Virus record (IMG/VR): IMGVR_UViG_3300028610_001217
DNA length: 64,000 nt
Strand: one strand, 5' to 3'
From: a virus
Lineage: Duplodnaviria > Heunggongvirae > Uroviricota > Caudoviricetes
The position numbers and the translations under genes are program-made. Position 1 is the first letter of the stretch. The number at the start of each line of letters is the position of its first letter. Of this stretch, positions 5,208-25,977 are shown one piece after another. The notes beneath the pieces are model-generated. The model worked only from the letters and a program-made list of their open reading frames with translations, was not told where the DNA came from and did not search any database.

Positions 5208-5381
5208 ATTTGTAAGCAGAAGTTCAACTCCTTTAGGCGCACATGTAATAACATAAATATTAATCGCACCACATCTACTACACTTAATGCTTACACGTCC
5301 ATCTGTATACCCCAACAACTTATCACAATCATAGCACCTTATTGCTTCCATTCCGACCGTTGATGGCTTCACTGTTGTCAT
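5208..5381 (-). CDS. Mu Com-like zinc-ribbon small protein (57 aa)
   Basis: Translated by hand: MTTVKPSTVGMEAIRCYDCDKLLGYTDGRVSIKCSRCGAINIYVITCAPKGVELLLTNR. The CxxC...CxxC layout and IRC..C.KLL / I.C.RCG motifs resemble the Mu Com translational activator. The start overlaps the stop of the upstream ORF (ATGA). Below the ORF-track size cutoff. Confidence 0.4.
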
Positions 5382-5683
5382 TCAGGCTCCCATCCTTGTA
5401 GTTGTACCCATAGTGTTTCGAGAGCGTTTTCTAAACTACCTTTAGCGATATTAGCCATTGACATGAATGCTACATTTTGAAACCCTTGCTGTAGCCATTC
5501 AAGCTTTCTTAATGGACCGCCCTTTTTATATCGCTCGGTTTCCATAATGAAATCTATAACCGGGTCTTCGCTGAAGGTCTTACCATCTAAGGATATAAAT
5601 CCATTGCCTTCGTCGTCTGTAAGTAGTAGCGCCTTACCTGCTCCCTCACTAGGAAAGAACTTCATGAATGAGAAATACATCAT
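5378..5683 (-). CDS. hypothetical protein
   Basis: 101-aa ORF, 4-nt overlap with the MuF gene stop. Confidence 0.4.
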   Translation of the reverse strand: MMYFSFMKFFPSEGAGKALLLTDDEGNGFISLDGKTFSEDPVIDFIMETERYKKGGPLRKLEWLQQGFQNVAFMSMANIAKGSLENALETLWVQLQGWEPE

Positions 5684-8600
5684 GTTAATATCTCCAATAA
5701 CGTTTTAGCCCGAAAAACGAAATGTCCTGCATCAAACAAATCTCCGCCAACACCAAATGCATCAATAAGTAATTCCTCAGGAATATCGGAAACCCAATCA
5801 TCAGACAATTCTTGCGTTACATTATTTAATAAAACAATTATTTCGGATCGCATTTCCAATAAATCTGGAGTTAAGCGCGACCTAAGGCTAGGAGAGGAAA
5901 ATATTGCAGGAACATTGACCGCAATATCTTCACCAAAAGTAGCTAGGCCATGATCGATAGCCAATATATTTTCTATCTCATTAATATTTCCCTTTGAACC
6001 GACAATCATATAATTTCCTAAATGACGATCTTCGTTTCCTATGAAAACATCAAAAAGCTTCATTCTCTGCCAGCCTACATTTTTTGATATTTCGCTTGTG
6101 AATTTTATCCCTTCTGGCACATTTTTCTCAAACATTCTTGCTGTTCTGGCTCCAGGGAACTTTTCTTTCAATGATTTTGTTGCCACCCACCAATCTCCTC
6201 TATGCTTGAAGGAAACTACTGCTGGCACATTCACGCCAAAATATTTACCTATCTTTGATGATACAATTTCGCTGATTACTTCAGTATCTCCCGGTCTTTT
6301 TAGAAACCACTCTTCGTCGTTGAACTCAGCCACACGAGAAACATTTGATCCTGACCTTAAGTTTTCTCGCACGTTTTTAAAATCGCTAAACTTCTTAGGT
6401 AATGTGGCAATAGGGGTTGGCTTATCCACCCCTGCAATAACTCCCGTTGGTGAGATATCTAATACCATGGCGCAACGGCAATTATGAACAACAAACCCTT
6501 TAGCTATATAAGATTCATCTTCTTCTACGGAAAAATTGAATAATTTAATTTTTCGTGTAGGTTGATATTTCTCAACCTTAGTTATTTCAACTTCTACAAA
6601 AGAATATTCTTCATTATGATTCATGAGGATTCTTTTTGCTTCATCTTTAACTAAACTTTCATCCTTCATTTCATCTTCTGAAAACCTTAAAACAGTCCAT
6701 CCTTCTTTTTCTATTTTTACTTGTCTGACCGAATCTTTTTCCTTATCTTGATGCCAATAATTACCATCTACTTCGATAGCAACTTTATATTTCGGCAATC
6801 CAAAATCGACAAAATAATTTAGTATAGGTTGCTGGGGTACATATTCCAAGCCTAATTCATCCAATATTATCTTCATTCTTTTTTCAAGGGAACTCATAAA
6901 CCCTTTTTGAGCCATAATGGAATTAGGGTGCTTTTCTGGGTGCGCAAGCATAGTTTTCTTGTAAGATTCGGTCATACGTTTACGAACTTCTGGGATCAAA
7001 CTAGGGTTATTTTTCTTCATACGTTCAGAACTTGCTTTTCTGTGTTGAGGTAAATTTGTTACAAGCTTATTTTTCTCAATTACCCAATCTTGTTGAAAAG
7101 GGTGTTTTCCTTCGGCAGCCATTTCCCTAGTAGCTTCATGAGCTTTCTTGGTAATGGCAGCGCCGTCCCTTGTTCCGTTGCTGTATTCTCTGCGTAATTG
7201 AGCTGAAGTTTTTGCTGATATTAACCGCCTATGTTCTTCCGACTTCCACTGCCTATCAGTTATATCAAGGCTGCAACACCTATCAGAACAATACTTATTA
7301 TCCATCGGGATATCTTTACCACAACGAACACACTTAGCCGCCATATACTTAATCTTTTGGCCTGGTTTCGCATCCTTAGCCTCAACCCACTCCCCGTCGA
7401 TTAAAATTGGGTGATTATCAGTCAAGGTCAAAGTCGCGCAACCATACAATTTAATCTTTACAATAGTTGGGGTTTGCTTAGGCGTTTGAATAAGCTTAGT
7501 TACCTTGCGAAACCTACCTTTATGCGTAAGAACTAAATCATCAACTTTAATTTGCCCTACTTGCTTCCAGCCCTTTGACGTAAAAATAGGCGTCTTATAA
7601 CTAACTAAGCATTGTGGGTGTAGCGGTGGCGTCAGTGTTGGGTTAAACGCTCTAGTTCCACCTCTTTGAAGTTCCACTGTTCCAGACTCAAATAAACCCC
7701 TTAGTGGAACAATTTGCCCATCCATAGGTCTGCAAAAGTCGCAAAGACGATCGTCTGGGGTGACCACCCATCGTCTAACGGCTACGCTTTCATCTATTAA
7801 GCCCCTATCAGCTGCTTGCTCCCAGATAGCTTGTTGCCCCATATTTGAGGAGCGTATGGTTTCGGTTCTAGCAATCATCTCAGATCGTAGTTTCAAGTGC
7901 TTTTTACGGAATTTTTCTGTCATCCGGTCGATGCGTTCTTGCGTTAGCGGTACTGTCTTGAACGGGCTTTTTCCCCTAGCCATTTGATCTTCGAGGTCAC
8001 GCTTGAAATTTATTACGGCATTAGCTTGTCTGTCCGTAAGGCCAACTATTTGTCGTATTTCCCTAGCTGCGGCTTTCGGAACAATACCTTCATTTATAGA
8101 TCTTGCTATAATGCTCCGCACGCCTAACTTCGTTTGCTCAGTAACAGCAGTAACCATTATGGCCGCATTCTCAGCAGCCCACCTCTCAGCTTGCTCAAAA
8201 GATATGCCCAACCCAGCAGCAACATCTACGCCGAGGAGTGCATCGGCTTTTTCAATTTCGATAGGAGGCAGTAAGTCAATTAGGGCCAGCATGAACAAGG
8301 TTGTGTTATCAGCCTTCCGGAATCGGGAACCACGCCAAACACCATCATTACCTTCACGACTCGAAGATTTTATCCATTCAGGCTTAATATCTTGCCCTAT
8401 AAGCTTCAAGCCTGCGGCAAGATTCTCATCTTGTTTTAACTTAGCTCCTATGCTTTGAGGTAATTCAACTCTTAAAATAATAGGGATACTTGATCTTCCG
8501 GTACGCTCCTCATATGCTTCTGTAGCAAAATTAGCCATTCCTTTAGCTGCCTTGAAGTCCTTGGTTACAAAAACCGCTTGACCATTTTCACCCTCATACC

Positions 8601-9132
8601 AATCAACACCCAATTCCTTCCAAGCTTCCGTATCTCCTGTTCGTTGAGGTGGCTTAAACTTTATTCCTTTATTGTTGATTGAATTAAAATACTTACTCAC
8701 GGTTCCATGGAAAACAGTTATCGGGGCAGCTGCTCCCGGATGATACCTCCCATAATTAGGATCGTCACTTGATCCATGCTTCTCGATAGCCGGAGTAACA
8801 CCTTCAGCACCCCTAGATACGGCAAAGATATCCTCAACTGAAGCTTCTGCGCCATCCATTAAAGTTTCCACTAATACCTTCGCAACAGGCATAAGCTTTT
8901 TCTCCATACCCGCGAAGTTAATCGCTATCTCGGCCCCGATAGGATCTTGAACTTTTAAGGCTCCCTCAAGGAACCCCATCCTAACGTCTTTTTCAAATAA
9001 GCCTAAAGCCTGTTCCGTCGCTTCCTGAACAGCAGGAAGGTATTCGTCAGCAATATCATTAAACTTCTGCCAAGCCGGTTCGACTTTTTCTATAAAATCA
9101 TCAAATGCTTTTAAAAGGGCAAGTTTATTCAT
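5680..9132 (-). CDS. MuF-like head morphogenesis protein with intein and C-terminal PI3/4-kinase/HipA-like kinase domain
   Basis: 1150 aa. Residues about 310-507 plus 885 onwards carry Mu gpF/SPP1 gp7 features (IARTETIRSSN ... TPPLHPQ | CRCAMV), split by an intein at residues 508-884. The C-terminal 260 aa contain FDVFIGNEDRHLGNYMIV and ILAIDHGLATF (DRH catalytic-loop and DFG-like motifs). Confidence 0.8.
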   Translation of the reverse strand: MNKLALLKAFDDFIEKVEPAWQKFNDIADEYLPAVQEATEQALGLFEKDVRMGFLEGALKVQDPIGAEIAINFAGMEKKLMPVAKVLVETLMDGAEASVEDIFAVSRGAEGVTPAIEKHGSSDDPNYGRYHPGAAAPITVFHGTVSKYFNSINNKGIKFKPPQRTGDTEAWKELGVDWYEGENGQAVFVTKDFKAAKGMANFATEAYEERTGRSSIPIILRVELPQSIGAKLKQDENLAAGLKLIGQDIKPEWIKSSSREGNDGVWRGSRFRKADNTTLFMLALIDLLPPIEIEKADALLGVDVAAGLGISFEQAERWAAENAAIMVTAVTEQTKLGVRSIIARSINEGIVPKAAAREIRQIVGLTDRQANAVINFKRDLEDQMARGKSPFKTVPLTQERIDRMTEKFRKKHLKLRSEMIARTETIRSSNMGQQAIWEQAADRGLIDESVAVRRWVVTPDDRLCDFCRPMDGQIVPLRGLFESGTVELQRGGTRAFNPTLTPPLHPQCLVSYKTPIFTSKGWKQVGQIKVDDLVLTHKGRFRKVTKLIQTPKQTPTIVKIKLYGCATLTLTDNHPILIDGEWVEAKDAKPGQKIKYMAAKCVRCGKDIPMDNKYCSDRCCSLDITDRQWKSEEHRRLISAKTSAQLRREYSNGTRDGAAITKKAHEATREMAAEGKHPFQQDWVIEKNKLVTNLPQHRKASSERMKKNNPSLIPEVRKRMTESYKKTMLAHPEKHPNSIMAQKGFMSSLEKRMKIILDELGLEYVPQQPILNYFVDFGLPKYKVAIEVDGNYWHQDKEKDSVRQVKIEKEGWTVLRFSEDEMKDESLVKDEAKRILMNHNEEYSFVEVEITKVEKYQPTRKIKLFNFSVEEDESYIAKGFVVHNCRCAMVLDISPTGVIAGVDKPTPIATLPKKFSDFKNVRENLRSGSNVSRVAEFNDEEWFLKRPGDTEVISEIVSSKIGKYFGVNVPAVVSFKHRGDWWVATKSLKEKFPGARTARMFEKNVPEGIKFTSEISKNVGWQRMKLFDVFIGNEDRHLGNYMIVGSKGNINEIENILAIDHGLATFGEDIAVNVPAIFSSPSLRSRLTPDLLEMRSEIIVLLNNVTQELSDDWVSDIPEELLIDAFGVGGDLFDAGHFVFRAKTLLEILT
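6481..7611 (-). mobile_element. intein (377 aa) with Vsr/DUF559-like endonuclease domain inside the MuF gene
   Basis: Starts with Cys (CLVSYKT, block A) and has LTLTDNHPIL (block B). Ends ...GFVVHN followed by extein +1 Cys (CRC). Internal region YFVDFGLPKYKVAIEVDGNYWHQDKEKD...GWTVLRFSEDEM matches the DUF559/Vsr-like PD-(D/E)xK endonuclease pattern. Also carries a CVRCGKD...CSDRCC zinc motif and NUMOD3-like basic repeats. Confidence 0.8.
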
Positions 9133-10612
9133 CAGATTTTAAGGCACTAAGGACTGCACTTTTCATTACCTTAACTGCTTCGACCAACTCTTCCTTGCCG
9201 TCAGGTTGAGGTGTTTTCGGTTCTTCCTTGGGTTCTGTTTTAGGCTTAGGTTTCGGCTTAGGTTTAGTAGTCGCTACACCTTCCTCAGGCACTTCTGCGG
9301 CAGCCGGAATAACCCTATCTTCGTCTTCAGGAGCCATAGGTAAACCAGCAACATCCCGTAAGTAATTTTCAAGCTCGACATCACCTTGCAGGTTAATCCC
9401 TACGCCAGTAAGGTTGCCAAGATAAGCACCGAGTTCAGCTAAGTCTGGCGTTTCAATATCGCCCGGAACTAACTTCGGTAGTTCCTCAAGGTTTTCGCCG
9501 TTAAGTTCAAACAACCGTGGTATTGCGTGCCGGTTAAATACGTCCGCAATCATATTAGTCCAAGCACCAATAGCGGCGGCAAACATCTCAGTCTTAGAGC
9601 TACTAAGGGCAAATGAGCCTACCGACTTCGTGCCCAAGAAGATAAAGTCCGCTAATACTGTCATCGCAATACGCTGGTCATAGCGATTGATAATCGCCTC
9701 TGTATCAAAATTCCGCTTACCGCCTGAATTGAGCAATGCAAGCTCTAATAGTTTGTTGTTGTTATCATCGAAAATAGCGGGAAGGACTACGCCCTCCTGC
9801 TCGTCACGCTTAATGTTTTGCACAATAGTTTTGGCATCTGCATAAGCGTTTTTTAGCCCTTGCGGAGCATTAGCATCCGTCCATTCTGACGGAACAGTTA
9901 AAACCGGGAAGCCAGCCAAATCACGTTCAATGCCGATAGCTTCAAAAGTTTGAATGCGCTTCTTTAGGAACCAGGATTGATATATGCTCCTCAAGATAGA
10001 TTCACCTTCAGGGCTACCCTTATGAACGCTCGTTCGGAACAATAGCGCCTTTGTTATTGGGATCGTAAGAAGTTGGTATTCAGGCGGTGGGTTTTGAATC
10101 ATGGCATTTACTCCGCCCTCATCATCCATTTCCCAGTGATCTAGTGAGTCCTGTGACCGAATAGGCAATTTCCGCCAACCAATTTTCCCGTCATTAAACC
10201 GGCTGCGCTTACTTGCGTTCTTATCCCGCCCGTTTCTAAACTTATAGACAATCTCATGATATGACCAGCCCCAAGGTAGGAATGATAGAATTTCAGCCAA
10301 AGTATCTTCCCAGGATTGTGACATATCATTAATAACGCCCTCCATAAACTCCTTAGCTTCAATATCCTTAGGGTCATCGCTTGCTGCTTGAAACGTCCAG
10401 GGGACTTGCCGAATAAGCATCTCAATAGCAAAAAGGATAGCACCAATTGTGGGGTCATTGGCTTGCATTTCTTTATAAACCCTGCGTCGTTCAGTTTCAC
10501 TTTGAAGCTGCCGTAACTGCTCCTCAAAAAGCCGACCATCAAAAATATTTAGGCCGGTTTTGCCGACCTCACCTGTATCGAGCTTCAATACTCTATCTTT
10601 TTTGTCCGTCAT
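9125..10612 (-). CDS. portal protein
   Basis: 495 aa, immediately downstream of terL and upstream of the MuF gene. C-terminal low-complexity tail KPKPKPKPKTEPKEEPK. Confidence 0.7.
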   Translation of the reverse strand: MTDKKDRVLKLDTGEVGKTGLNIFDGRLFEEQLRQLQSETERRRVYKEMQANDPTIGAILFAIEMLIRQVPWTFQAASDDPKDIEAKEFMEGVINDMSQSWEDTLAEILSFLPWGWSYHEIVYKFRNGRDKNASKRSRFNDGKIGWRKLPIRSQDSLDHWEMDDEGGVNAMIQNPPPEYQLLTIPITKALLFRTSVHKGSPEGESILRSIYQSWFLKKRIQTFEAIGIERDLAGFPVLTVPSEWTDANAPQGLKNAYADAKTIVQNIKRDEQEGVVLPAIFDDNNNKLLELALLNSGGKRNFDTEAIINRYDQRIAMTVLADFIFLGTKSVGSFALSSSKTEMFAAAIGAWTNMIADVFNRHAIPRLFELNGENLEELPKLVPGDIETPDLAELGAYLGNLTGVGINLQGDVELENYLRDVAGLPMAPEDEDRVIPAAAEVPEEGVATTKPKPKPKPKTEPKEEPKTPQPDGKEELVEAVKVMKSAVLSALKSDE

Positions 10613-17260: not shown

Positions 17261-17444
17261 TTTGTGGCATCAATTCAATTAGCACCGTTCTTATTAACTC
17301 AAATGCTTCAACCCTGTTAAATCCTGCGTTCATATATTCTACGAACATTTCGTGTAACTGAACTGCGGCTATCTTCAATTCCGTTATTCCAAATTCTTCT
17401 TCATTTTCAGGCAATGCATTCCCCCAATACTCTGACGACTTCAT
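17253..17444 (-). CDS. hypothetical small protein
   Basis: 63-aa ORF inside the sugar island. Confidence 0.3.
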   Translation of the reverse strand: MKSSEYWGNALPENEEEFGITELKIAAVQLHEMFVEYMNAGFNRVEAFELIRTVLIELMPQND

Positions 17445-18402
17445 TCTGCTCTTCTTTGGTTATTGTAACGTAATACGGCAGCGAAATTATATGCCTAAAT
17501 GCCTCGTCAACTTCTGGCAAATCCTTAGGCCAATCAACCCACAGTCGATAATCAGTTACAGGTGCCATTGCCATTACGCCGCGCTCTTGCATGGCTGCAA
17601 CAACGTCAGTCGTTAGGTGATGTTTCTCCAGCCTTACCGTGTACCTATAAGGTAATTTGGCATTACAAGCTTGATAGTTCTCTAGCAGTGGATCATAATA
17701 GTCGGCCACCTTACGTTTTAAGTCCATCTCCCAAATAAGCTTTGACATCTTACTAAGGGCAATCGCAGCACCTACATCGTTGAAAAGGTCATTTTGCTTT
17801 AACGATGGTGGCTTATTACCGTAAGTCCTGAGGTCTTTGACTTTATCGATTAGCTCCTCGCTGCCACTTACAATGCCCCCGCCAGTTGAACCTATAAATT
17901 TAGTGGGATAAAAGCTTGTGATAGCCAAATCAGCAGTTTGCTCGACTAAGGTATGACACATATCCTCAATAACTGGAATGCCTAGATTCCTCAGCGGCTT
18001 AATCTTGGCCTCATGCCCAAACATGTGAACCGCTATAATGGCACGAGTTTTAGGCGTTACTTTAGCCGTTACCGAGTACGGATCAAGGCAAAGTGTATCG
18101 CCATCTATATCGGCTAACACCGGAACAGCCCCGATCGTGAGGATTGCATTGTGCAACGCAACACAATTGTAAGCTGATATAATTACTTCGTCACCCGCTA
18201 GTACCCCTAGCGCCTTTAAACCCAACCTGAGCGCTGTCAGGCCGCTGGAGACAGTAGCAGAAGCTGTTGCCTTAACCGATTTAGCCCATACATATTCAAG
18301 TGTTTCGCACGCAGGCCCAGAAGCCAAGAAACCGCTGGCTATAACCTCTTGAGCGGCCAACATTTCCGCCTCACCGAAAAGCGGTTTATTGTGGGGTATC
18401 AT
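17407..18402 (-). CDS. DegT/DnrJ/EryC1/StrS-family PLP-dependent sugar aminotransferase
   Basis: 331 aa; N-terminus MIPHNKPLFGEAE...ASGFLASGP is typical of the family. Second aminotransferase in the island. Confidence 0.75.
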   Translation of the reverse strand: MIPHNKPLFGEAEMLAAQEVIASGFLASGPACETLEYVWAKSVKATASATVSSGLTALRLGLKALGVLAGDEVIISAYNCVALHNAILTIGAVPVLADIDGDTLCLDPYSVTAKVTPKTRAIIAVHMFGHEAKIKPLRNLGIPVIEDMCHTLVEQTADLAITSFYPTKFIGSTGGGIVSGSEELIDKVKDLRTYGNKPPSLKQNDLFNDVGAAIALSKMSKLIWEMDLKRKVADYYDPLLENYQACNAKLPYRYTVRLEKHHLTTDVVAAMQERGVMAMAPVTDYRLWVDWPKDLPEVDEAFRHIISLPYYVTITKEEQNEVVRVLGECIA

Positions 18403-18649
18403 TAGCCGCTTTCGCTAACTCTTTGATAAATAGTTCAGCAAAGCCTTCACTCTCACAACCATCTTCACAACTGCAAGCGATACACTGGATGCAATAATTT
18501 TTGTCAGCAATTTCTTTTGCGACCTTCCTAATTAAACCTTCTTCGTAAAGAGCAATATGATAATTAAGAGATCCAACAATTTTACTCAAAGTCACCCACC
18601 TTGATCTTGCCGACCGGAATACCTTCATACCACCAAACGATTCCTTCAA
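18386..18649 (-). CDS. hypothetical Cys-rich protein
   Basis: CIQCIACSCEDGCESEG cluster; 87 aa. Confidence 0.3.
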   Translation of the reverse strand: MKESFGGMKVFRSARSRWVTLSKIVGSLNYHIALYEEGLIRKVAKEIADKNYCIQCIACSCEDGCESEGFAELFIKELAKAANDTPQ

Positions 18650-19154
18650 TTCTGACCCTAGGGTTATAGATACTCCTGCAATCGTTTAATAATGTATGTA
18701 AATCGTCGAAATCTGTAGATGCGACGTACAACTCTAAGCCCTCACGCATGCGCGGATCCGAAAACAGAAATATAAATGGTTTATCTAACGTAAGCGGATT
18801 ACCCTGAATTTTGGGACCAATTGCTTCGCCCGACCATTCACCATCCGATGTATTGGTAAAGTTTGTATTATTTACTGCTACCCACATGTGTTGATCGGCG
18901 GGATCAAGTGATTCGGCATCAGTATACCAAGGATCAACTATCCCCTCTGCCTTTTGCTCCTTCCTGGGATTGCGACGTTTCTCTAATCTGACGCAACGTC
19001 CTGCCCGAATAGTCACGCGGACATTAGTGCCATCTAGTTTCTCAGTAGCCACGGCACCTTCCGGCAAGTCAACAAGTCTTTTATCGATTACATAATGCTT
19101 GCCTCGTTTGCCGTCACCATAATCTCTGTCAAAAATTGTTGGAATTTTCCTCAT
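18582..19154 (-). CDS. nucleotidyltransferase of the RNA/DNA ligase superfamily (KxDG motif)
   Basis: TEKLDGTNVRV (motif I lysine), later EGIVWW and KIKV (motif IV/V-like). Small (190 aa). Confidence 0.4.
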   Translation of the reverse strand: MRKIPTIFDRDYGDGKRGKHYVIDKRLVDLPEGAVATEKLDGTNVRVTIRAGRCVRLEKRRNPRKEQKAEGIVDPWYTDAESLDPADQHMWVAVNNTNFTNTSDGEWSGEAIGPKIQGNPLTLDKPFIFLFSDPRMREGLELYVASTDFDDLHTLLNDCRSIYNPRVRIEGIVWWYEGIPVGKIKVGDFE

Positions 19155-19164
19155 TTAACCCCCA

Positions 19165-19599
19165 TTAAAATATTGCCATTCTTATGTGGCCTTCAGGCTC
19201 ATGTTTACCCTCCGGGTAGAAACCGCATTTACGGAAAGCCCCTATACTGCGCTCGTTTTCCTCCCGAATGACCGCAACAACCTTAATGATGCGCCACTTT
19301 TCAAAAACTTCCCTAACCCCCATATTAATTGCGGTTATTGCTACGCCGCCACCCCTGTGATCTTCGCTGATATATATGGAGACAACAGCTTCCTCATCCA
19401 CCCTATCAAACCGGATGAAACCAACATTAGGCTCAATTATATAATACAAAACCTCGTCACTTGCTATGGCAACTGGGTAATATATTAAATGTTGCTCCCA
19501 GCTTACCGCCTTTTGCGTAGTTGTTACGCTTATCATATCGGGCATGTTCCGCCAATTAAACACCGTCCGCATATCAGTCTTCTTGGCGAGGCGAATCAA
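19165..19599 (-). CDS. GNAT N-acetyltransferase (PseH-like)
   Basis: HRGGGVAITAI acetyl-CoA-binding motif A; 144 aa; sits in the Pse island. Confidence 0.5.
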   Translation of the reverse strand: MIRLAKKTDMRTVFNWRNMPDMISVTTTQKAVSWEQHLIYYPVAIASDEVLYYIIEPNVGFIRFDRVDEEAVVSIYISEDHRGGGVAITAINMGVREVFEKWRIIKVVAVIREENERSIGAFRKCGFYPEGKHEPEGHIRMAIF

Positions 19600-19799
19600 T
19601 GTGTAATCCTTATTTCATCAGCAAAATTCAATAATTCTTCTGCTATTAACCTAATATCAGCTTCATTAAATACGCCAAAACCACCTTCTATATAAACAAC
19701 CACTTTTTTCTCACTCGATATATACGAAACTAAGTCCCCTTTTTTCATTTCTCCAGATAATATATATTCTCTTGCATCTCCAGTTACTACTTCCGCCAT
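19596..19799 (-). CDS. SAF-domain protein (detached C-terminal domain of NeuB-type synthase)
   Basis: 67 aa; VVTGDAREYILSGEMKKGDLVS resembles the SAF/antifreeze-like C-terminal domain. Its ATG overlaps the TGA stop of the upstream NeuB barrel (ATGA). Confidence 0.45.
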   Translation of the reverse strand: MAEVVTGDAREYILSGEMKKGDLVSYISSEKKVVVYIEGGFGVFNEADIRLIAEELLNFADEIRITH

Positions 19800-20524
19800 C
19801 AGCCTATTGTCGCCTTAAGCTGTTTAAGCTCAGTAGTATCTAAGGACCACCAATGATCTGGCCCATCAGCTTCATGTTCAAGCGTAAAATGGACTTCAAT
19901 AGCTACTGCCCCTAATTCAGTGGCACGTATGCAAACATCTACTCCTTGTTTTCCCGCTACATGATTGCTGTACCCGCAAGTATATCCCATGTTTTGTATT
20001 GCTCGTATTTTCCACAATTTGGGGTAAATGCAAGGATATTGTGATTCGCAATGAAGAATTAAATCTTCTGGATTAGCTATTTCGTGAAGGTTGTTTAAAT
20101 CTGCTACATGACCCATTGATATAACAATCGGTAGATTTTGACGATGCATTTCTTTTATCATTTCAGTATTGAATATCATATCTGATGCAACTTTTAAGGC
20201 GCATACACCTAAGTCAACCATCTCCTTGACACCTCGGGCGCTAACAGTGGTAACAAAAAACGGAATACCTACTAATTCACAATGTTCTTTTATTTCTTGC
20301 CATTGCCCTAATGAAAATTCATGACGCTTAAATAAATCAAATAAACTTTCACCATTATGCATACCGCTACTATCAAAATCTTCTGGGGGTGCATGTTGAA
20401 ATTTAACGTAATTAGCCCCAGCGCTAACCGCTGCATTGATAGTTTCTTTGGCTAATTCAATTAACCCATTATGATTTAGGCCAATTTCGGCTATAAGTAT
20501 AGGCGCAGTCCCGACTTTATGCAT
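19799..20524 (-). CDS. NeuB-family nonulosonic acid synthase, TIM-barrel part (PseI/NeuB-like)
   Basis: [12 protein letters not shown]...YVKFQ ... GYSNHV ... IEVHFTLE canonical NeuB motifs. Lacks the fused SAF domain, which is encoded by the next ORF. Confidence 0.75.
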
Positions 20525-21254
20525 TAATAATTTTCATCCCCTCCAACAAAGCTTGTCTAGCATTTTTTCTAATATCTCTCTCCCAAAGCCTAATTACCTT
20601 ATAGCCTTTATCTTTCATATAAGCATCACGCTTTCTATCTGATTCCCTTCCATCAGGATAGTTATGCCAATAGTCCCCGTCGCATTCTATTACTAGGTTG
20701 CAACAAGGGATGAAGATATCTGGGAAATATGGACTAATACGTTTGCCAATTTGGTGCGTTATATTGAGAAGCCCCAATTCTTTACAAATAGCTATTTCGA
20801 TTGAAGATGGATTGGCGGTTCGCGCCAACCAAGCATTTTCTAAATAATCTCTTCGCTCATGAATATCCCTAGCAGCCCATACTTTTTTGCCAGCAATACT
20901 CATTTTATTTTTAGCGGCATTAGTATGTTTATGCCCCTTAAAGCAGCCATCCCGACCCTTGTTGGCCTTACTTATATTTTGTCGATGTTCTTGAGTAAAA
21001 GTTTTTTGCCTACCTGCTTGCTTAAGTTTTTCTATAGTTTCTTCTGAATACACCCCTTTCCGCCCTTTGTTCCAAGGAGTATTCCCAGTCATTCGTTCCC
21101 TAATCTTTTCACAATGTTCTTTAGAAAACTTTTTCCCTTTATGCGCAACACTCATACGATTCTTAGTTTCTTCAGAATGCTTTTTACCTTTGCTCGACTC
21201 ACTTATCTTTTTCTTAGTTTCTTCAGGCATTGGTCTACCTTTTGACCAACTCAC
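20517..21254 (-). CDS. homing endonuclease-like protein: NUMOD3 repeats plus Vsr/DUF559-like nuclease domain
   Basis: [29 protein letters not shown] repeats (NUMOD3-like). C-terminal [22 protein letters not shown]...[20 protein letters not shown] (DUF559/Vsr-like). Confidence 0.7.
20660..20731. repeat. 72-nt exact repeat, copy 1 (shared with 22481..22552)
   Basis: agttatgccaatagtccccgtcgcattctattactaggttgcaacaagggatgaagatatctgggaaatatg is identical at both loci. It encodes the [23 protein letters not shown] core of the two endonuclease genes. Confidence 0.9.
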
Positions 21255-21276
21255 AATTAAACTTCCTCAATTTCAA

Positions 21277-22365
21277 TCATGAAGTCACCGAGTCATAAGT
21301 CAATTGCTCATTATTTTTAGCATCACGACTAGCCCTTTTACCAATGAATAAATAATCGAGGTAAGGTGAAAGACCATTGCCCGGCCTCTTCGCAGCCAGC
21401 ATTTCTCTTGTGATAACCTCACCGGCTTTAACGTCCCGGTTAAAGACCAAACTTACAAACCATAATTCACGCTGCGAAACATCTGCCATAGAGGGAAACA
21501 AACCATAATCACCTAACATCTCTAGCCGGGGGAACCTTGGACTAAATTCGTAGGAAGCACTTTGTAGCCAATAAACATATTCTTTGAACTTCTTAGCCTC
21601 AATAGCTTTAGTTTGATGGTGGCCCCCAGGATCGTCGTTGTTGAGTTTAATCCTTTTCTCTATCAAAACGGCACCTAAACTTACCGCTAAGCCGTCCGGA
21701 TCCCAATCTGCCCAATCAGCACTGTAACCTACCGCTATGTCGTATCTATCTTTGAGGTAAGGAATAGTCTTTAAGTTGAGTTCGGACGCATTAGGTGAGT
21801 GTGACTCATAAACAAATATTACATTACGTTGAAACCACTGCCTGCCCTTTGTTTCAATAATTTGCTCAACTAGCGCAACAACTTCGGAGCTATTAACTGC
21901 CCCAATATCGAATTGTATCGGCTTGCCTGTTTCCAATACTGCTTCAATCAGGTATTTATTGGTAGTGTCCCAGCCGCCTATTTTGTAGCAAGGGACTTCA
22001 AGCTCTTCAGCTAAAGGAATGTAGTCTATTGTTCCAACCGAAACATAAAAAATAATACCCCGCTCTTTGCAGTAAGCAGCTACCTTGCGCCAGTCTTCGT
22101 CAGGCACCCAATAAGACAATATGACCTGAACCAGAGATTTATCTTCATACTGAAGTGTAAAGTCGGCTATCAGTTCTTCCGGGTTTGACATAATGAACTT
22201 AATAGCATCACAAGAAGCATCTACTGCTGCATCGATCAACTTCTTTGCTATTTCCAGGCTACCTTTTGATGTCGATCCTGCCTCAGCTACGATAAATAAG
22301 GGTGCGCCGCTACCGATTTCCCTATTACCAATTTTCAAGCTATTTCCCCCTTGTTGATCGCACAC
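21277..22365 (-). CDS. divergent NeuB-family synthase with fused SAF domain
   Basis: LFIVAEAGSTSKGSLEIAKKLIDAAVDASCDAIKF N-terminal region. C-terminal VITREMLAAKRPGNGLSP SAF-like domain. Diverges from canonical NeuB (KFIMSNP instead of KFQ). Confidence 0.55.
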   Translation of the reverse strand: MCDQQGGNSLKIGNREIGSGAPLFIVAEAGSTSKGSLEIAKKLIDAAVDASCDAIKFIMSNPEELIADFTLQYEDKSLVQVILSYWVPDEDWRKVAAYCKERGIIFYVSVGTIDYIPLAEELEVPCYKIGGWDTTNKYLIEAVLETGKPIQFDIGAVNSSEVVALVEQIIETKGRQWFQRNVIFVYESHSPNASELNLKTIPYLKDRYDIAVGYSADWADWDPDGLAVSLGAVLIEKRIKLNNDDPGGHHQTKAIEAKKFKEYVYWLQSASYEFSPRFPRLEMLGDYGLFPSMADVSQRELWFVSLVFNRDVKAGEVITREMLAAKRPGNGLSPYLDYLFIGKRASRDAKNNEQLTYDSVTS

Positions 22366-22988
22366 AATAAAGCTTGTTGCGCATCCTTCCTAATATCTCG
22401 CTCCCAAATTCTAATAACTTTATACCCATGTGCCCCCATAAAATTATCTCTTTGAGCGTCGTTTTCTTGTCTCCCCGGTAAGTTATGCCAATAGTCCCCG
22501 TCGCATTCTATTACTAGGTTGCAACAAGGGATGAAGATATCTGGGAAATATGAGCCAATTTGTTTATCTGCTTCATAAGTAATGTTGAGGTCATTTAGAA
22601 CTTTATGGATAGCTGTTTCTATAGATGATGGGCTTGATATTTGTGCTACCTTAAATGCTTTTTGAGTATGCTCTCTTTTTTGCCCTATTGATAAGCTACC
22701 CCACCATTCGTTACCACCTTTGTGCAGCAAATCTAACCGTTCTTGCTTGTCTTCTGGTGAAGCGTTAGCCCAAAACTTTTTAGCACCATTGTTAAAAGCT
22801 GGCAAAAGCCTTATTACTCGTTCTTCTTTTGAACAACCCCCCCAATACCCTTTTAAGCCAATAGAAATATTCTGTTTCTGCTTATTAGAAAGCTTTTTAC
22901 CCTTATGTGCTTCCTTCATTTTTGCTTTACTTTCTTCAGTATGCTTCTTGCCCTTAAATCCAGAAACCCTTCTCCCCTTAACTTGCAT
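22335..22988 (-). CDS. homing endonuclease-like protein, paralog of 20517..21254
   Basis: GKKHTEESKAKMKEAHKGKKLSNKQKQNI NUMOD3-like repeats. [24 protein letters not shown]...GYKVIRIWERDI Vsr/DUF559-like domain. Confidence 0.7.
   Translation of the reverse strand: MQVKGRRVSGFKGKKHTEESKAKMKEAHKGKKLSNKQKQNISIGLKGYWGGCSKEERVIRLLPAFNNGAKKFWANASPEDKQERLDLLHKGGNEWWGSLSIGQKREHTQKAFKVAQISSPSSIETAIHKVLNDLNITYEADKQIGSYFPDIFIPCCNLVIECDGDYWHNLPGRQENDAQRDNFMGAHGYKVIRIWERDIRKDAQQALLCAINKGEIA
22481..22552. repeat. 72-nt exact repeat, copy 2
   Basis: Identical to 20660..20731. Confidence 0.9.
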
Positions 22989-24051
22989 AATCCACTATAA
23001 CCTCAATTATATAATCAACTTGTTTGTTTGTTAGGCCAGGGTATATTGGGATACTTAATACTTCTTTGCATACTTTTTCGGAAATTAAGCAACTCCCTGG
23101 GTTATGATAATAAGGCTCCAAGGTCAATGCTCTATAATGTACCTGGCTACCTATCCCTTTATTTTTTAAGTGTTGCCTTAATTTGTTTCTTTTTTTACAC
23201 CTAATAACGTAAAGGTGATGAGAACTTTTACATCCCCCGAGCTGCGTCAATGGCGTTACCCCCGTAACTTGTGAGAAAGCATCATTGTATCTATTAGCTA
23301 TCTTACTCCTTTTATCTATGAAGTGGTCAAGCCTTTTTAATTGATTAATTCCCAAGGCGCAACTGATATCTGAAAGCCGATAATTGAAGCCCAGGGTTTC
23401 CATACCGCGCTCACTTCTACCGTGATTACGAAATTGCTTAGCTCGCTCATAAAGTGCTTCAGCATCAGAATGCTCAAAAGAAACCATACCCCCTTCGCCG
23501 GTAGTTATCGACTTAACTGGGTGAAATGAGAAGCAATTTATATGGCCCCAAAAAGCATGAGGTATTTTTAGGTAGTCGGCCCCTAGTGAATGGCAAGCAT
23601 CGTCAATTAACCATAGGTTATGCTTATCAGCCAACTGCCTTAGCCCTAAGTAGTTGCAAGGTTGCCCGGCAAAGTCGACGGCGATAACAGCTTTTGTCTT
23701 CGCAGTTATCTTGCGCTCGATATCCTCAAGATCTATTAGAAGCGTATCTGCCGCAACATCAGCAAAAACTGGTACTGCTCCCATGTAAGCCACACAATTA
23801 GCACTAGCCACAAACGTAATAGCTGGTGTGATAACTTCATCCCCCACCCCAATCTCAATAGCTGCCATTGCACAATGTAAGGCTGCCGTCCCCGAACTTA
23901 CAGCTAATGTATATTCACTGCCAATTTTAGCAGCAAAGGCTTTTTCGAATTCTTCAACCTTTGGGCCAGTGGTGAGAAAATCTGACCTTAGAGTTTCCGC
24001 TACCGCCTTAATGTCATCCTGGTCAATATTTTGATGATTATATGGTATCAA
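22978..24051 (-). CDS. pseC: PseC-type PLP-dependent aminotransferase (UDP-4-amino-4,6-dideoxy-N-acetyl-beta-L-altrosamine transaminase family)
   Basis: MIPYNHQNIDQDDIKAVAETLRSDFLTTGPKVEEFE is a typical PseC/DegT N-terminus; 357 aa. Confidence 0.8.
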   Translation of the reverse strand: MIPYNHQNIDQDDIKAVAETLRSDFLTTGPKVEEFEKAFAAKIGSEYTLAVSSGTAALHCAMAAIEIGVGDEVITPAITFVASANCVAYMGAVPVFADVAADTLLIDLEDIERKITAKTKAVIAVDFAGQPCNYLGLRQLADKHNLWLIDDACHSLGADYLKIPHAFWGHINCFSFHPVKSITTGEGGMVSFEHSDAEALYERAKQFRNHGRSERGMETLGFNYRLSDISCALGINQLKRLDHFIDKRSKIANRYNDAFSQVTGVTPLTQLGGCKSSHHLYVIRCKKRNKLRQHLKNKGIGSQVHYRALTLEPYYHNPGSCLISEKVCKEVLSIPIYPGLTNKQVDYIIEVIVDYAS

Positions 24052-24175
24052 CCTACTGCACCTTTTTTATGAAAGCCTATTGTGAAAAACCCTAGATCTA
24101 TGAACAAAGCTTTATCTGCTGGAATAATTTCTACCCCTATTCTAAAAATTCCCCAATGCTGATCACTATAAGCCA

Positions 24176-25141
24176 TCATTTAATCAAGCTCCCTATTTGG
24201 TCGCCTGTTAAAAATAACTCATTCTTGTCACTTGCATAAGACCCTTTGAACGGCTTACCCTCTATGCTACCCCGTTCAAACCAGGTATGTGATGGCAGCA
24301 CCACGTATCTATTTTCCTGACTGATCGCTGTTTCTCCTTCAGCTATCAAAACTTCGTGAAGCTTTTCCCCTGGCCTAATTCCTGAAACCTCAATATTACA
24401 ATCCGGCCCAATAGTCTGAGCTAATTGCATAATGTTGCAACTAGGAATCTTGGGAACAAATATTTCGCCGCCGACCATAGTATCTAGCGCTTCAAGTACA
24501 AAGTCGGTAGCTTGGTCGAGTGTTATCCAGAACCGGGTCATCTTAACATCCGTTATTGTGAGCAAACCCTTTTTCTTTTGTTCCTTAAACTTGGGGACAA
24601 CGCTACCCCGGCTCCCCACCACATTACCGTATCGCACAACCGATATCCTAGTTGATGTTCCGCTAGCATAAGCGTTACCCTGAATGAACAATTTTTCAGC
24701 CATTAGCTTGGACGCCCCATATGCATTTATAGGGTTTACAGCTTTATCAGTAGATAGCGCCACTAACTTCTTAACTCTGCACGTTATGGCCGCTTCTAGG
24801 ACGTTCTGAGAGCCTATTATATTAGTGTTCACACCCTCATAAGGGTTATATTCAATTGCCGGCACTTGCTTCAACGCTGCCGCATGAATAACAATATCGA
24901 TATCATGAAGCGCTATCCTTAAGCGCCCTGGATCCCGGACATCACCTAAGAAGTAACGTAACCGGCTGTCGGGATCAATTGAGGTATCCGGGAAGCCAGT
25001 TTGACGCATTTGTTCTTGCTTCAGTTCATCCCGGCTGTAGATAACAACCTTTTTAGCGCGTTGCTTTAATGCTTTCTTTATAAACGCCTTACCGAATGAG
25101 CCTGTGCCTCCTGTGATTAATACGTTAAGTCCTTCCAGCAC
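24176..25141 (-). CDS. pseB: PseB-type UDP-GlcNAc 4,6-dehydratase/5-epimerase (Polysacc_synt_2, FlaA1-like)
   Basis: LNVLITGGTGSFGKAFIKKAL Rossmann motif; 321 aa; short-chain dehydratase architecture. Confidence 0.8.
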   Translation of the reverse strand: MLEGLNVLITGGTGSFGKAFIKKALKQRAKKVVIYSRDELKQEQMRQTGFPDTSIDPDSRLRYFLGDVRDPGRLRIALHDIDIVIHAAALKQVPAIEYNPYEGVNTNIIGSQNVLEAAITCRVKKLVALSTDKAVNPINAYGASKLMAEKLFIQGNAYASGTSTRISVVRYGNVVGSRGSVVPKFKEQKKKGLLTITDVKMTRFWITLDQATDFVLEALDTMVGGEIFVPKIPSCNIMQLAQTIGPDCNIEVSGIRPGEKLHEVLIAEGETAISQENRYVVLPSHTWFERGSIEGKPFKGSYASDKNELFLTGDQIGSLIK

Positions 25142-25691: not shown

Positions 25692-25905
25692 TCCTGTCTC
25701 TCTTTCTGCCTACCTATCTGCCTAGCCGTTAATCAAACAGTCTTGCACTATTTTAACCTAAAAAGAAAAAGCCCAACGGTCTGACGCCCGTCGAGCCTTT
25801 TCTAAATTCGTAACCGGATCCTTAAAGGGTTATCAACCCCCTTGGACCTCAAACATCGGAGCCCGTAAAAGCTAAAAGCAAGAGCACGACCTCGCTATCC
25901 GATAG

Positions 25906-25977
25906 AAGCTACGGCTGGATTCAAACCAGCGTGGAACGGTTTTGCAAACCGTTGCCTAATCACTCGGCCACGTAGCC
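25906..25977 (-). tRNA. tRNA-Cys(GCA)
   Basis: Hand-folded cloverleaf: anticodon stem ACGGT/ACCGT, loop TTGCAAA, T-arm GCTGG-TTTGAAT-CCAGC, U73 discriminator. Confidence 0.65.

What the first reader, a model, noticed from the sequence alone, without database searches (positions are those of the whole stretch)
6481..7611. Intein in the MuF head-morphogenesis gene carrying a Vsr/DUF559-type homing endonuclease
The MuF-like domain is split exactly where the family's conserved C-terminal motif sits (...TPPLHPQ | CRCAMV). The insert is a textbook intein: N-terminal Cys, block B TLTDNHPIL, C-terminal VVHN, +1 Cys. Its endonuclease core is YFVDFGLPKYKVAIEVDGNYWH...RFSEDEM, a PD-(D/E)xK Vsr/DUF559-like fold, not the usual LAGLIDADG or HNH types. 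The same nuclease family also occurs as two free-standing genes in this window.
Basis: partly seen in the sequence, partly recalled or inferred. Interest (0 to 1): 0.75.

Follow-up and report, generated by a model that had tools for sequence, protein, structure and literature searches.

The report
Intein with in-frame Vsr-like homing nuclease
A phage head-assembly (MuF) gene is interrupted by a self-splicing protein element (an intein) whose built-in DNA-cutting domain is of the Vsr-like "EDxHD" type, a pairing that is common in metagenomes but that I could not find described in the papers searched.

Summary
ORF 5680..9132 (-) encodes a 1150-aa MuF/SPP1-gp7 protein. Residues 508-884 (window 6481..7611) are a 377-aa class-1 intein that splits the conserved MuF motif PPLHPQ|CRC.

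The intein has:
- Cys1, block B TxxH, C-terminal HN and Cys+1;
- an insert made of a 4-Cys zinc ribbon, a helical region and a nuclease domain.

The nuclease's best solved match is I-Bth0305I, founder of the EDxHD (Vsr-like) homing-endonuclease family (3R3P, TM 0.85, 32% identity). The catalytic equivalents D269, E280, H287 and D293 are all present.

Intein-less MuF homologues carry a contiguous HPxCRC. The closest homologue has the same intein with the nuclease module cleanly deleted.

The architecture is widespread: 175 of 218 related inteins recovered keep the nuclease, and 158 of those keep its catalytic residues. The papers searched report Vsr-like endonucleases with inteins only as free-standing genes in split-intein loci or as antisense ORFs.

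Splicing and cleavage are inferred, not shown.

The parts
5680..9132 (-). Host gene: 1150-aa MuF/SPP1-gp7-like head-morphogenesis precursor. Calculated masses are 129.5 kDa for the precursor and 85.7 kDa after splicing.
   Evidence: ORF listed. Phage_Mu_F PF04233 at residues 362-508 and phrog_3517 'head morphogenesis' at E 2e-38. It lies between the portal gene (9125..10612) and the protease/scaffold/capsid genes. Masses.
7612..9132 (-). N-extein (aa 1-507), ending ...TPPLHPQ. The MuF domain proper is about aa 291-507 (Pfam match 362-508, window 7612..8049).
6481..7611 (-). Intein, 377 aa (aa 508-884), 43.8 kDa, pI 9.3.
7339..7611 (-). Hint N-lobe (intein residues 1-91), with Cys1 (block A) and block B T64-x-x-H67.
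   Evidence: C1, T64 and H67 are invariant in 47/47 homologues. The model is all beta-strand here with pLDDT 94-98.
7273..7338 (-). Four-cysteine zinc ribbon / treble clef (intein C94, C97, C108, C112).
   Evidence: Invariant in 47/47 and present in 173/175 nuclease-bearing relatives. Weak DUF2116, Zn_Ribbon_1 and YacG hits.
6892..7272 (-). Helical, basic region (intein 114-240) with conserved RMKxNNP and HPEKHPN motifs. Presumed DNA-binding arm.
   Evidence: Helices 110-235 in the model, pLDDT 58-90. Motifs. phrog_3339 'homing endonuclease' spans protein residues 597-829. The region is not NUMOD3 by Pfam or hhalign.
6616..6891 (-). EDxHD / Vsr-like / DUF559 nuclease domain (intein 241-332), with E243, D269, E280, D282, H287 and D293.
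6481..6615 (-). Hint C-lobe (intein 333-377), with block F ...LFNFSVEEDESYIA... and block G ...VVHN.
   Evidence: TIGR01443 is above its cut-off. H376 is present in 46/47 and N377 in 47/47. Aligns to the PI-MtuI C-terminus.
5683..6480 (-). C-extein (aa 885-1150). It begins with Cys+1 of the CRC motif (6478..6480) and continues into a HipA/PI3-4-kinase-like domain (about aa 927-1120).
22335..22988 (-). Free-standing paralogue 1: 217-aa NUMOD3 + DUF559 homing-endonuclease-like gene, between a DegT aminotransferase gene and a NeuB gene.
   Evidence: 30% identity over 90 aa, E 7e-12.
20517..21254 (-). Free-standing paralogue 2: 245-aa gene with 4x NUMOD3 + DUF559, between two NeuB-family genes.
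   Evidence: 32% identity over 93 aa, E 2e-10.

Best explanation
Window 6481..7611 (-) encodes a mobile class-1 intein inserted in the most conserved motif of a phage MuF head-morphogenesis protein (HPx|CRC).

**Splicing (inferred from canonical intein chemistry).**
- After translation the two Hint lobes (intein 1-91 and 333-377) fold together.
- Cys1 performs the N-S acyl shift, and Cys+1 attacks in the trans-thioesterification step.
- Asn377 cyclises, assisted by His376, and the exteins are ligated.
- The products would be an 85.7-kDa MuF protein with an intact ...PPLHPQCRCAMV... motif and a free 43.8-kDa intein.

**Homing (inferred).**
- The module between the Hint lobes is a 4-Cys zinc ribbon, a basic helical arm and a C-terminal EDxHD/Vsr-like nuclease, all in the same reading frame.
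- It would act as a homing endonuclease. In a mixed infection it would cut the intein-less MuF allele of a related phage near the sequence CTACACCCACAA|TGCCGTTGCGCC.
- Recombinational repair from the intein-bearing genome would then copy the intein in.
- By analogy with I-Bth0305I, cleavage is probably done by a dimer of nuclease domains close to the insertion point.

**Shown here:** domain identities, exact boundaries, conservation of splicing and catalytic residues, restoration of the host motif, and a distribution typical of a mobile element.

**Inferred:** actual splicing, actual cleavage, the target site and dimerisation.
For: **Boundaries and motifs**
- Coordinates and junction strings are as stated.

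**Hint domain**
- The Intein_splicing model is hit by all 47 aligned family members.
- TIGR01443 is above its cut-off.
- PT-HINT scores 31.6 against a cut-off of 27.7 when the nuclease module is removed in silico.
- The AF2 model has pLDDT 88.7.
- C1, T64, H67 and N377 are invariant and H376 is present in 46/47. 209 of 218 relatives read C/T/H/H/N at these positions.

**Host motif**
- In-silico splicing raises Phage_Mu_F from 32.6 to 48.3 bits, out to profile position 111/112.
- Intein-less P0117-P0125 have a contiguous PPLHPxCRC.

**Nuclease**
- DUF559 scores 52-55 bits.
- The best PDB sequence and fold match is I-Bth0305I, 3R3P.
- D269, E280, H287 and D293 align with I-Bth0305I D196, the conserved Glu, H213 and D222, which correspond to Vsr D51, F62, H69 and D97 (alignment; PMC3239194; PMC2677866).
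- 158 of 175 nuclease-bearing relatives keep these four residues, and 173 of 175 keep the four zinc-ribbon cysteines.

**Mobile-element signature**
- Intein GC is 36.7%, against 47.3% for the flanking MuF domain and 43.8% for the window.
- Inteins 45-54% identical to this one sit in MuF exteins that are only about 28-35% identical over 60-100 aa. The nearest exteins other than P0116 (P0117 at 45%, P0118 and P0119 at 38-39%) lack the intein.
- All stages of the homing cycle are seen: 175 nuclease-bearing, 14 partial and 29 nuclease-less inteins.
- P0116, whose MuF domain is 82% identical to the window's, carries the same intein with the 241-aa module cleanly removed.
- The same intein type is found in other hosts at conserved motifs, for example UDG at VK|CRPP.
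Against: - No experiment exists: neither splicing nor DNA cleavage has been shown for any member of this intein family in the papers searched.
- Block F is atypical. Asn359 and Glu366 stand where the Mtu RecA intein has Asp and His, so the detailed splicing chemistry may differ.
- Pfam Intein_splicing is marginally below its gathering score for this copy: 35.7 against 35.8 for the intein alone, and 31.9 in the whole protein.
- The helical arm could not be linked to a known DNA-binding motif. NUMOD3 was not detected, and hhalign gave a probability of 1.7%.
- The intein and extein of P0116 have diverged in step: 79-80% for the Hint lobes and 82% for the MuF domain. In this particular lineage the intein has therefore been inherited vertically for some time. 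Current nuclease activity of this copy is not proven.
Confidence: 0.85

Rival explanations
1. The intein still splices, but its endonuclease is no longer active in homing. It would be a fixed, vertically inherited element on the way to becoming a mini-intein.
For: Intein and extein identities to P0116 are similar (79-80% against 82%), which suggests co-divergence rather than recent invasion, and P0116 has already lost the module. 43 of 218 relatives are partial or nuclease-less. The UDG-hosted relatives in cellular genomes lack the E.[DN]G...[WFY][HQ] motif in the regex screen; three A1 members carry Arg at the 282 position. No near-identical copy in a divergent extein was found.
Against: This copy retains E243, D269, E280, D282, H287, D293 and all four zinc-ribbon cysteines. 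90% of nuclease-bearing relatives keep the catalytic set, which implies purifying selection on the nuclease across the MuF group. There is no frameshift or stop in 1131 bases.
Confidence: 0.12
2. The Hint domain is a pre-toxin HINT (PT-HINT) or bacterial intein-like autoprotease. It would cleave to release the C-terminal kinase-like effector of a MuF-fused toxin, rather than ligate exteins.
Against: - The insert splits the HPxCRC motif, and the two residues after it (RC) complete that motif.
- Intein-less P0118 has MuF plus a kinase-like domain with no Hint between them.
- Many homologous inteins sit in MuF proteins that end 8-12 residues after CRC, so there is nothing to release (P0003, P0014, P0035).
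- The same element sits in UDG at VK|CRPP.
- The conserved HN + Cys+1 and the TIGR01443 hit are intein features.
- The presence of a homing-type nuclease is unexplained by this reading.
Confidence: 0.02
3. The 377 residues are an ordinary, unspliced insertion domain of MuF. The nuclease would be carried in the virion or ejected with the DNA.
For: MuF proteins are known carriers of fused effector domains (own knowledge). This protein has extra N- and C-terminal domains.
Against: All splicing residues are conserved. The insertion lies inside a conserved motif that is contiguous in homologues. The closest homologue lacks the nuclease but keeps the Hint lobes. The same cassette occurs in unrelated host proteins.
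Confidence: 0.01

Closest known systems
I-Bth0305I, founder of the EDxHD (Vsr-like) homing endonuclease family (PDB 3R3P; PMC3239194)
   Different: I-Bth0305I is a separate protein encoded inside a group I intron of recA, and it uses NUMOD2/HTH repeats. Here the module is translated as part of an intein. Its arm is a zinc ribbon plus a helical region with no detectable NUMOD, and it sits in a structural gene.
'Fractured genes': split inteins with a free-standing Vsr-like endonuclease gene between the halves (Dassa et al. 2009, PMC2677866)
   Different: There the endonuclease is its own ORF and the host gene is broken in two, so splicing occurs in trans. Here a single ORF encodes a contiguous cis-splicing intein with the nuclease fused in frame. 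[quoted passage not shown]
Actinobacteriophage minor-capsid (MuF) inteins and inteins with antisense VSR-like endonucleases (bioRxiv 10.1101/2025.01.02.630785); example Gordonia phage Nordenberg gp9
   Same: Nordenberg gp9 has an intein at the same MuF site (...HEVIN|C...CHN|CRC). Its Hint lobes are related to this one: 46% identity over 78 aa and 58% over 24 aa.
   Different: Its in-frame middle has no recognisable domain. An antisense ORF there carries an 'AAFIDGEG' LAGLIDADG-like motif with no Pfam hit, and the preprint reports an antisense LAGLIDADG endonuclease for minor-capsid inteins. The preprint reports Vsr-like endonucleases in full inteins only on the antisense strand. In the window the Vsr-like nuclease is in frame.
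Pseudomonas phage MR14 helicase gp44 intein (MT104474.1)
   Same: An intein whose interior encodes the same module: a Cys-rich N-terminal segment that reads like the zinc ribbon (by eye), the RMKSNNP motif and a DUF559 nuclease. It aligns to window intein 190-318 at E 1e-13, and DUF559 scores 44.8 bits.
   Different: In MR14 the module is a 241-aa ORF in a different reading frame from the helicase/intein, and the in-frame translation is featureless. It looks like the nested free-standing stage that a frame-restoring indel would convert into the window's arrangement (inference).
Canonical bifunctional inteins (PI-SceI, PI-PfuI with LAGLIDADG; HNH-containing phage inteins)
   Different: The endonuclease fold is different: a PD-(D/E)xK-derived, Vsr-like fold instead of LAGLIDADG or beta-beta-alpha-metal. 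No LAGLIDADG or HNH model is hit.

Membership tests
Intein (class 1) | Hint fold formed by N- and C-terminal lobes | tested here: met
Intein (class 1) | Residue 1 nucleophile (Cys/Ser) and block B T-x-x-H | tested here: met
   C1, T64 and H67 are invariant in 47/47.
Intein (class 1) | C-terminal His-Asn followed by a Cys/Ser/Thr +1 extein residue | tested here: met
   ...VVHN|C. H376 is present in 46/47 and N377 in 47/47. TIGR01443 scores 24.9 against a cut-off of 15.6.
Intein (class 1) | In-frame insertion in a conserved host motif, and homologues without it have the motif contiguous | tested here: met
   P0117-P0125 read PPLHPxCRC. Phage_Mu_F rises from 32.6 to 48.3 bits after in-silico splicing.
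Intein (class 1) | Pfam Intein_splicing (PF14890) gathering score | tested here: inconclusive
   35.7 bits against 35.8 for the intein alone, and 31.9 within the whole protein. All 47 family members hit at E<=0.01, with the best at 3e-13.
Intein (class 1) | Canonical block F Asp and His | tested here: not met
   N359 is present in 46/47 and E366 in 39/47, where the Mtu RecA intein has D and H. Such variation occurs in other inteins (own knowledge). It does not exclude membership but qualifies 'textbook'.
Intein (class 1) | Protein splicing demonstrated | not testable with these tools
   Needs expression and mass spectrometry.
EDxHD (Vsr-like) homing endonucleases | Vsr-like nuclease fold | tested here: met
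EDxHD (Vsr-like) homing endonucleases | Conserved catalytic residues (equivalents of Vsr D51, H69 and D97 plus the family Glu) | tested here: met
   D269, H287, D293 and E280 were mapped through the phmmer alignment to 3R3P and the residue numbering in PMC3239194 and PMC2677866. The set is conserved in 158/175 relatives.
EDxHD (Vsr-like) homing endonucleases | N-terminal NUMOD-type DNA-binding repeats | tested here: not met
   No NUMOD hit in this copy, and none among the families listed for the 47 relatives. hhalign against the window's NUMOD3-bearing gene gives a probability of 1.7%. A zinc ribbon plus helical arm stands in that position instead.
EDxHD (Vsr-like) homing endonucleases | Embedded in, or next to, a self-splicing element or a broken gene | tested here: met
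   It lies inside an intein.
EDxHD (Vsr-like) homing endonucleases | Site-specific cleavage of the element-free allele | not testable with these tools
   Needs biochemistry.
DUF559 (PF04480) | Pfam gathering score | tested here: met
   52.3-55.6 bits against 20.6.
Vsr G:T mismatch repair endonuclease (TIGR00632) | NCBIfam curated cut-off | tested here: not met
   28-31 bits against 97.85. Pfam Vsr gives 24-27 bits against 27. The domain is related to Vsr but is not a Vsr repair enzyme.
LAGLIDADG / HNH intein endonucleases | Any match to these families inside the intein | tested here: not met
   No such Pfam hit at E<=5 or in any of the 47 relatives.
Pre-toxin HINT (PF07591) | Hint that releases a C-terminal toxin and does not restore a host motif | tested here: not met
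   The HMM passes on the nuclease-deleted version (31.6 against 27.7). However, the flanks reconstitute HPxCRC, and most homologous hosts end just after CRC.
MuF / SPP1 gp7 head-morphogenesis protein (host) | PF04233 gathering score and position next to the portal gene | tested here: met
   32.6 bits unspliced and 48.3 bits spliced, against 29.6. phrog_3517 at E 2e-38, and the portal gene is immediately upstream.

The most novel reading that the evidence does not exclude
This is a representative of a large, so far undescribed class of contiguous inteins whose homing endonuclease is an in-frame EDxHD/Vsr-like nuclease with a zinc-ribbon DNA-binding arm. It would be a third in-frame endonuclease fold for inteins, after LAGLIDADG and HNH. 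It would also be the 'fused' end-stage predicted by the fractured-gene model of endonuclease capture. The intermediate stages would still be visible in nature: an out-of-frame nested ORF in phage MR14, this in-frame fusion, and the nuclease-deleted mini-intein in P0116. The same MuF site is also served by a different (antisense LAGLIDADG) endonuclease in Gordonia phages.
Probability: 0.55. Interest if true: 0.6.

Novelty: new variant of a known kind. Interest (0 to 1): 0.5.

Why it matters
- **A gap in the literature.** Inteins are usually said to carry LAGLIDADG or, rarely, HNH endonucleases. Vsr-like/EDxHD enzymes have been linked to inteins only as separate genes in split-intein loci (2009) or as antisense ORFs (2025 preprint).
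- **Support for a model.** An abundant family with the nuclease fused in frame would show directly that a free-standing homing endonuclease gene nested in an intein can become an intein domain.
- **A comparative series.** Nested ORF, in-frame fusion and mini-intein could be studied together, along with a swap of endonuclease type at one host site.
- **New material for engineering.** It would supply many monomeric Hint-nuclease fusions with new, presumably long, target sites.
- **An unusual host gene.** A late structural gene (MuF) is a recurrent intein target, which bears on how such elements spread between co-infecting phages.

Tried and rejected
- **Phage identity.** Megablast of the gene against 50,697 GenBank phage records found nothing. 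tblastn of the intein found no record covering 80% or more. No cultured phage with this element was identified.
- **NUMOD3 in the helical arm.** By eye, strings such as 'HRKASSERMKKNNP' and 'SEEHRRLIS' look NUMOD3-like. Pfam finds no NUMOD3 in this copy, and none among the families listed for the 47 relatives. BLASTP to the window's NUMOD3-bearing genes is not significant outside the nuclease, and hhalign gives 1.7%. The idea was dropped.
- **PT-HINT / toxin-release reading.** Considered because of the C-terminal kinase-like domain, and rejected for the reasons given under the rival explanations.
- **Target-site symmetry.** The reconstructed homing site contains CAAtgccgTTG across the junction. 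I did not test this against chance and give it no weight.
- **Group I introns.** None found in the window.
- **Nordenberg antisense ORF.** Pfam gives no hit. Its LAGLIDADG assignment rests on the 'AAFIDGEG' motif and on the preprint's statement.
- **Global alignment to intein-less homologues.** Aligning the unspliced precursor was distorted by unrelated C-termini. The junction is read directly from the sequences instead.
Full report

Yes, exactly as written.
- The window holds a 1150-aa ORF on the minus strand (5680..9132).
- 'CLVSYK...' begins at residue 508 and '...GFVVHN' ends at residue 884. This equals window 7611..6481, 377 residues, followed by Cys885 (6478..6480) of 'CRCAMV'.
- All quoted strings are present.

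HMM hits on the whole protein:

| Model | Residues | Bits | Cut-off |
|---|---|---|---|
| DUF559 | 761-828 | 52.3 | 20.6 |
| Intein_splicing | 527-884 | 31.9 | 35.8 |
| Phage_Mu_F | 362-508 | 32.6 | 29.6 |
| TIGR01443 (intein C-terminal region) | 865-885 | 24.9 | 15.6 |

Weaker Vsr, PT-HINT and Vint hits also appear.

The neighbouring genes are terminase, portal, this gene, protease, scaffold and major capsid. The host gene is therefore a MuF/SPP1-gp7 head-morphogenesis gene in a tailed-phage structural module.

The identical protein (P0115) is on record on three metagenomic contigs in the 50-200 kb class, the longest listed at 102,020 bases. It is not an assembly accident.

**2. The exteins**

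It fails.
- Intein-less homologues read straight through the junction: P0117 TPPLHPLCRCTMS, P0118 GPPAHPSCRCAIG, P0119 VPPLHPSCRCIIV, P0120 VPPLHPMCRCTFY, P0123 SPPLHPNCRCDLI, P0125 GPPLHPNCRCTEG.
- Joining the halves in silico raises the Phage_Mu_F score from 32.6 to 48.3 bits. The match then extends to profile position 111 of 112.
- The intein therefore sits between His-Pro-x and Cys-Arg-Cys of the family's C-terminal motif. The upstream CDFC suggests a metal site, but this is inference.

**3. Anatomy of the intein**

An alignment with 46 full-length relatives (A1) shows these invariant or near-invariant positions:
- C1, and T64 and H67 (block B, TxxH);
- C94, C97, C108 and C112;
- D269;
- N331 and H332 (the junction back into the Hint fold);
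- S367 and N377;
- near-invariant: E243, E280, G283, H287 and H376.

The AlphaFold model built on that alignment is confident (pLDDT 88.7, pTM 0.72). It shows five parts:

| Intein residues | Part |
|---|---|
| 1-93 | beta-rich Hint N-lobe |
| 94-112 | small zinc ribbon |
| 110-235 | run of helices; lowest confidence at 170-240 |
| 241-332 | alpha/beta nuclease domain |
| 336-377 | Hint C-lobe |

Structure matches:
- Foldseek ranks 3R3P first (TM 0.85).
- By sequence alone, 3R3P is also the best PDB hit (E 2e-8).

Catalytic residues:
- 3R3P is the D196A/H213A mutant of I-Bth0305I. D196, N208, H213 and D222 correspond to Vsr D51, H64, H69 and D97 (PMC3239194).
- The family also has an invariant Glu at Vsr F62 (PMC2677866).
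- Through the alignment these map to D269, D282, H287, D293 and E280 of the window intein. All are present.
- The nuclease belongs with the EDxHD homing endonucleases and is not a Vsr repair enzyme (TIGR00632 at 30.8 bits against a cut-off of 97.85).

Block F:
- It deviates from the Mtu RecA pattern. Asn359 and Glu366 stand in place of Asp and His.
- 'Textbook' is slightly generous, but the class-1 hallmarks are all there.

**4. The nuclease module is a separable cassette**

- P0116 is the closest homologue. Its identity to the window protein is 72% in the N-terminus, 82% in the MuF domain and 59% in the C-extein.
- It carries the same intein at the same site, but as a 137-aa mini-intein: ...KVKYMA|NDEEYSF...
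- The 241 residues from the zinc ribbon to '...ILMNH' are missing, while the Hint lobes are 79-80% identical.
- P0030, P0037 and P0038 are partial deletions that keep the zinc ribbon.
- Removing the module in silico lets the PT-HINT model pass its cut-off.

**5. Distribution and signs of mobility**

Abundance:
- The 90%-cluster search gave 114 hits, 46 of which cover all 377 residues.
- The exhaustive search of 1.84 billion 50%-cluster representatives gave 7108 hits at E<=1e-3, 833 at E<=1e-10 and 251 at E<=1e-30. By my count, about 81 of the top 150 match residues 1-377 in a single stretch.

Among 218 recovered inteins with both Hint ends:
- 175 keep the nuclease, 14 are partial and 29 lack it.
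- Of the 175, 158 keep D269, E280, H287 and D/E293.
- Of the 175, 173 keep the four zinc-ribbon cysteines.

Hosts and sites:
- Hosts are mostly MuF proteins.
- Two insertion points two residues apart are used: site a, HPx|C...HN|CRC (as in the window), and site b, HxxCR|C...HN|Cxx (P0001, P0005, P0165, P0177 and others).
- The same cassette also sits in family-4-type UDG at VK|CRPP, in MAGs assigned to Rokuibacteriota, Nitrospiraceae, Binatia and other bacterial groups. One UDG-hosted member is labelled Bipolaricaulota (P0064). Full-length relatives in other hosts, including archaeal MAGs, also turn up.
- The UDG copies examined lack the simple nuclease motif (E.[DN]G...[WFY][HQ]) in a regex screen. 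Three A1 members have Arg in place of D282.

Signs of horizontal movement:
- GC content is 36.7% in the intein, 31.9% in the nuclease and 25.9% in the Hint C-lobe. The adjoining MuF domain is 47.3% and the window 43.8%.
- Inteins 45-54% identical to this one lie in MuF exteins that BLAST aligns at only about 28-35% over 60-100 residues.
- The nearest exteins apart from P0116 lack the intein (P0117 45%, P0118 and P0119 38-39% over more than 200 residues).
- This discordance, and the coexistence of full, decaying and mini forms, is the classic homing-cycle picture.
- In the window's own lineage, however, intein and extein have diverged in step with P0116. Recent invasion is not indicated here.

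**6. Related arrangements in sequenced phages**

- No GenBank phage carries the whole element.
- Gordonia phage Nordenberg gp9 (MuF-like minor capsid protein) has an intein at the same site (...HEVIN|C...CHN|CRC). Its Hint lobes are related (46% and 58% identity), but the in-frame middle is featureless.
- An antisense ORF there carries an 'AAFIDGEG' LAGLIDADG-like motif. Pfam finds nothing in it.
- A 2025 preprint reports antisense LAGLIDADG endonucleases for actinophage minor-capsid inteins.
- Pseudomonas phage MR14 helicase gp44 has an intein whose in-frame middle is also featureless. A 241-aa ORF in another frame of the same strand (L004 2264..2989) begins with a Cys-rich segment that reads like the zinc ribbon (by eye) and carries an RMKSNNP motif and a DUF559 nuclease. 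It aligns to window intein residues 190-318 (E 1e-13; DUF559 at 44.8 bits).
- I read these as stages of one process: a free-standing endonuclease gene nested in an intein (MR14), an in-frame fusion (this window), and loss of the nuclease (P0116). Endonuclease type has also been swapped at a single host site (Gordonia phages). This ordering is inference.

**7. The free-standing paralogues**

- ORFs 22335..22988 (217 aa, NUMOD3 + DUF559) and 20517..21254 (245 aa, four NUMOD3 + DUF559) are homologous to the intein's nuclease domain. Identity is 30-32%, with E 7e-12 and 2e-10.
- They sit between genes of a sugar-biosynthesis cluster.
- All three hit phrog_3339 'homing endonuclease'.
- Their DNA-binding parts are not detectably related to the intein's arm.
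- The intein nuclease is far closer to other intein nucleases (up to 60%). It was not recruited from these neighbours.

**8. Mechanism**

See Best explanation. Splicing chemistry and homing are inferred from established knowledge of class-1 inteins and of I-Bth0305I. I-Bth0305I is a homodimer, recognises a pseudopalindromic core and leaves 2-nt 5' overhangs next to the insertion site (PMC3239194). Nothing here tests activity.

**9. Comparison with the literature**

- Dassa et al. 2009 found Vsr-like endonucleases as free-standing genes between split-intein halves. [quoted passage not shown]
- Taylor et al. 2011 characterised I-Bth0305I.
[quoted passage not shown] - Full-text searches for intein with Vsr, Vsr-like, EDxHD or DUF559 found no description of an in-frame fusion.
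- One Thermosynechococcus paper mentions a DUF559/EDxHD gene in its intein section, without architecture.
- The library lacks most subscription journals, so prior description cannot be excluded.
- Databases already annotate many of these proteins as 'very-short-patch-repair endonuclease'.

**10. Verdict**

- It is not a new kind of system. It is a new variant of a known kind: a contiguous intein carrying the EDxHD nuclease in frame, with a zinc-ribbon arm, in a structural phage gene.
- It belongs to a large family that appears not to have been written up.
- A specialist would find it useful rather than astonishing, because modular capture of endonucleases by inteins is expected.
- Interest 0.5.

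Noticed in passing
window 8263..8742 (-), aa 131-290 of the MuF protein: A variable N-terminal domain ('ITVFHGT...PEWIK') with no Pfam hit. It is replaced by an unrelated sequence in the closest homologue P0116 (32% identity here against 72-82% in flanking parts). P0125 has a similar stretch. By recollection it resembles a Tpt1/ADP-ribosyltransferase-type fold. It may be a swappable effector domain fused to MuF.
   Followed up: partly
window 5773..6354 (-), aa ~927-1120 of the MuF protein: A C-terminal HipA_2 / PI3-PI4-kinase-like domain (25.7 bits, just below the cut-off of 27; phrog_3162 at E 4e-9). The intein-less MuF homologue P0118 also carries PF00454. A kinase-like cargo on a head-morphogenesis protein is unusual.
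   Followed up: partly
window 17407..25141 (-): The phage carries a nonulosonic-acid-type sugar cluster: a Polysacc_synt_2/PseB-like dehydratase, two DegT aminotransferases, and two NeuB-family synthases (one with a SAF domain, one without). The two free-standing NUMOD3+DUF559 endonuclease genes are wedged between these genes, overlapping their neighbours by a few bases.
   Followed up: partly
window 25905..31805 and 55264..55335 (-): 23 tRNA genes covering nearly all amino acids, most of them in a 6-kb array.
   Followed up: no
window 32217..32298 (-): An Rfam tmRNA hit above the gathering score (54.6 against 47), but only 82 nt long although it is reported as spanning model positions 1-374. 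ARAGORN calls no tmRNA there. Unexplained.
   Followed up: no
P0001, P0005, P0023, P0165, P0177, P0188, P0195, P0206, P0211, P0222 (related proteins): The same intein family uses two MuF insertion points two residues apart: before the first Cys of CRC (as in the window) or before the second. This suggests either site slippage or independent invasions.
   Followed up: partly
L004 2264..2989 (+), Pseudomonas phage MR14: An unannotated 241-aa ORF (Cys-rich N-terminal segment plus DUF559) nested out of frame inside the intein of the annotated 'putative helicase' gp44. Neither the intein nor the nested ORF is annotated in the record.
   Followed up: partly
L009-L018 (MAGs assigned to Rokuibacteriota, Nitrospiraceae, Binatia, Anaerolineae and others): Uracil-DNA-glycosylase genes interrupted at VK|CRPP by a related intein. 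In these copies a regex screen does not find the simple nuclease motif, consistent with decay; three A1 members carry Arg at the 282 position.
   Followed up: partly
window 5378..5683 (-): A 101-aa ORF directly downstream of MuF, overlapping its stop, with no PHROG hit. A 101-aa ORF occupies the same position in the related contig L001.
   Followed up: no
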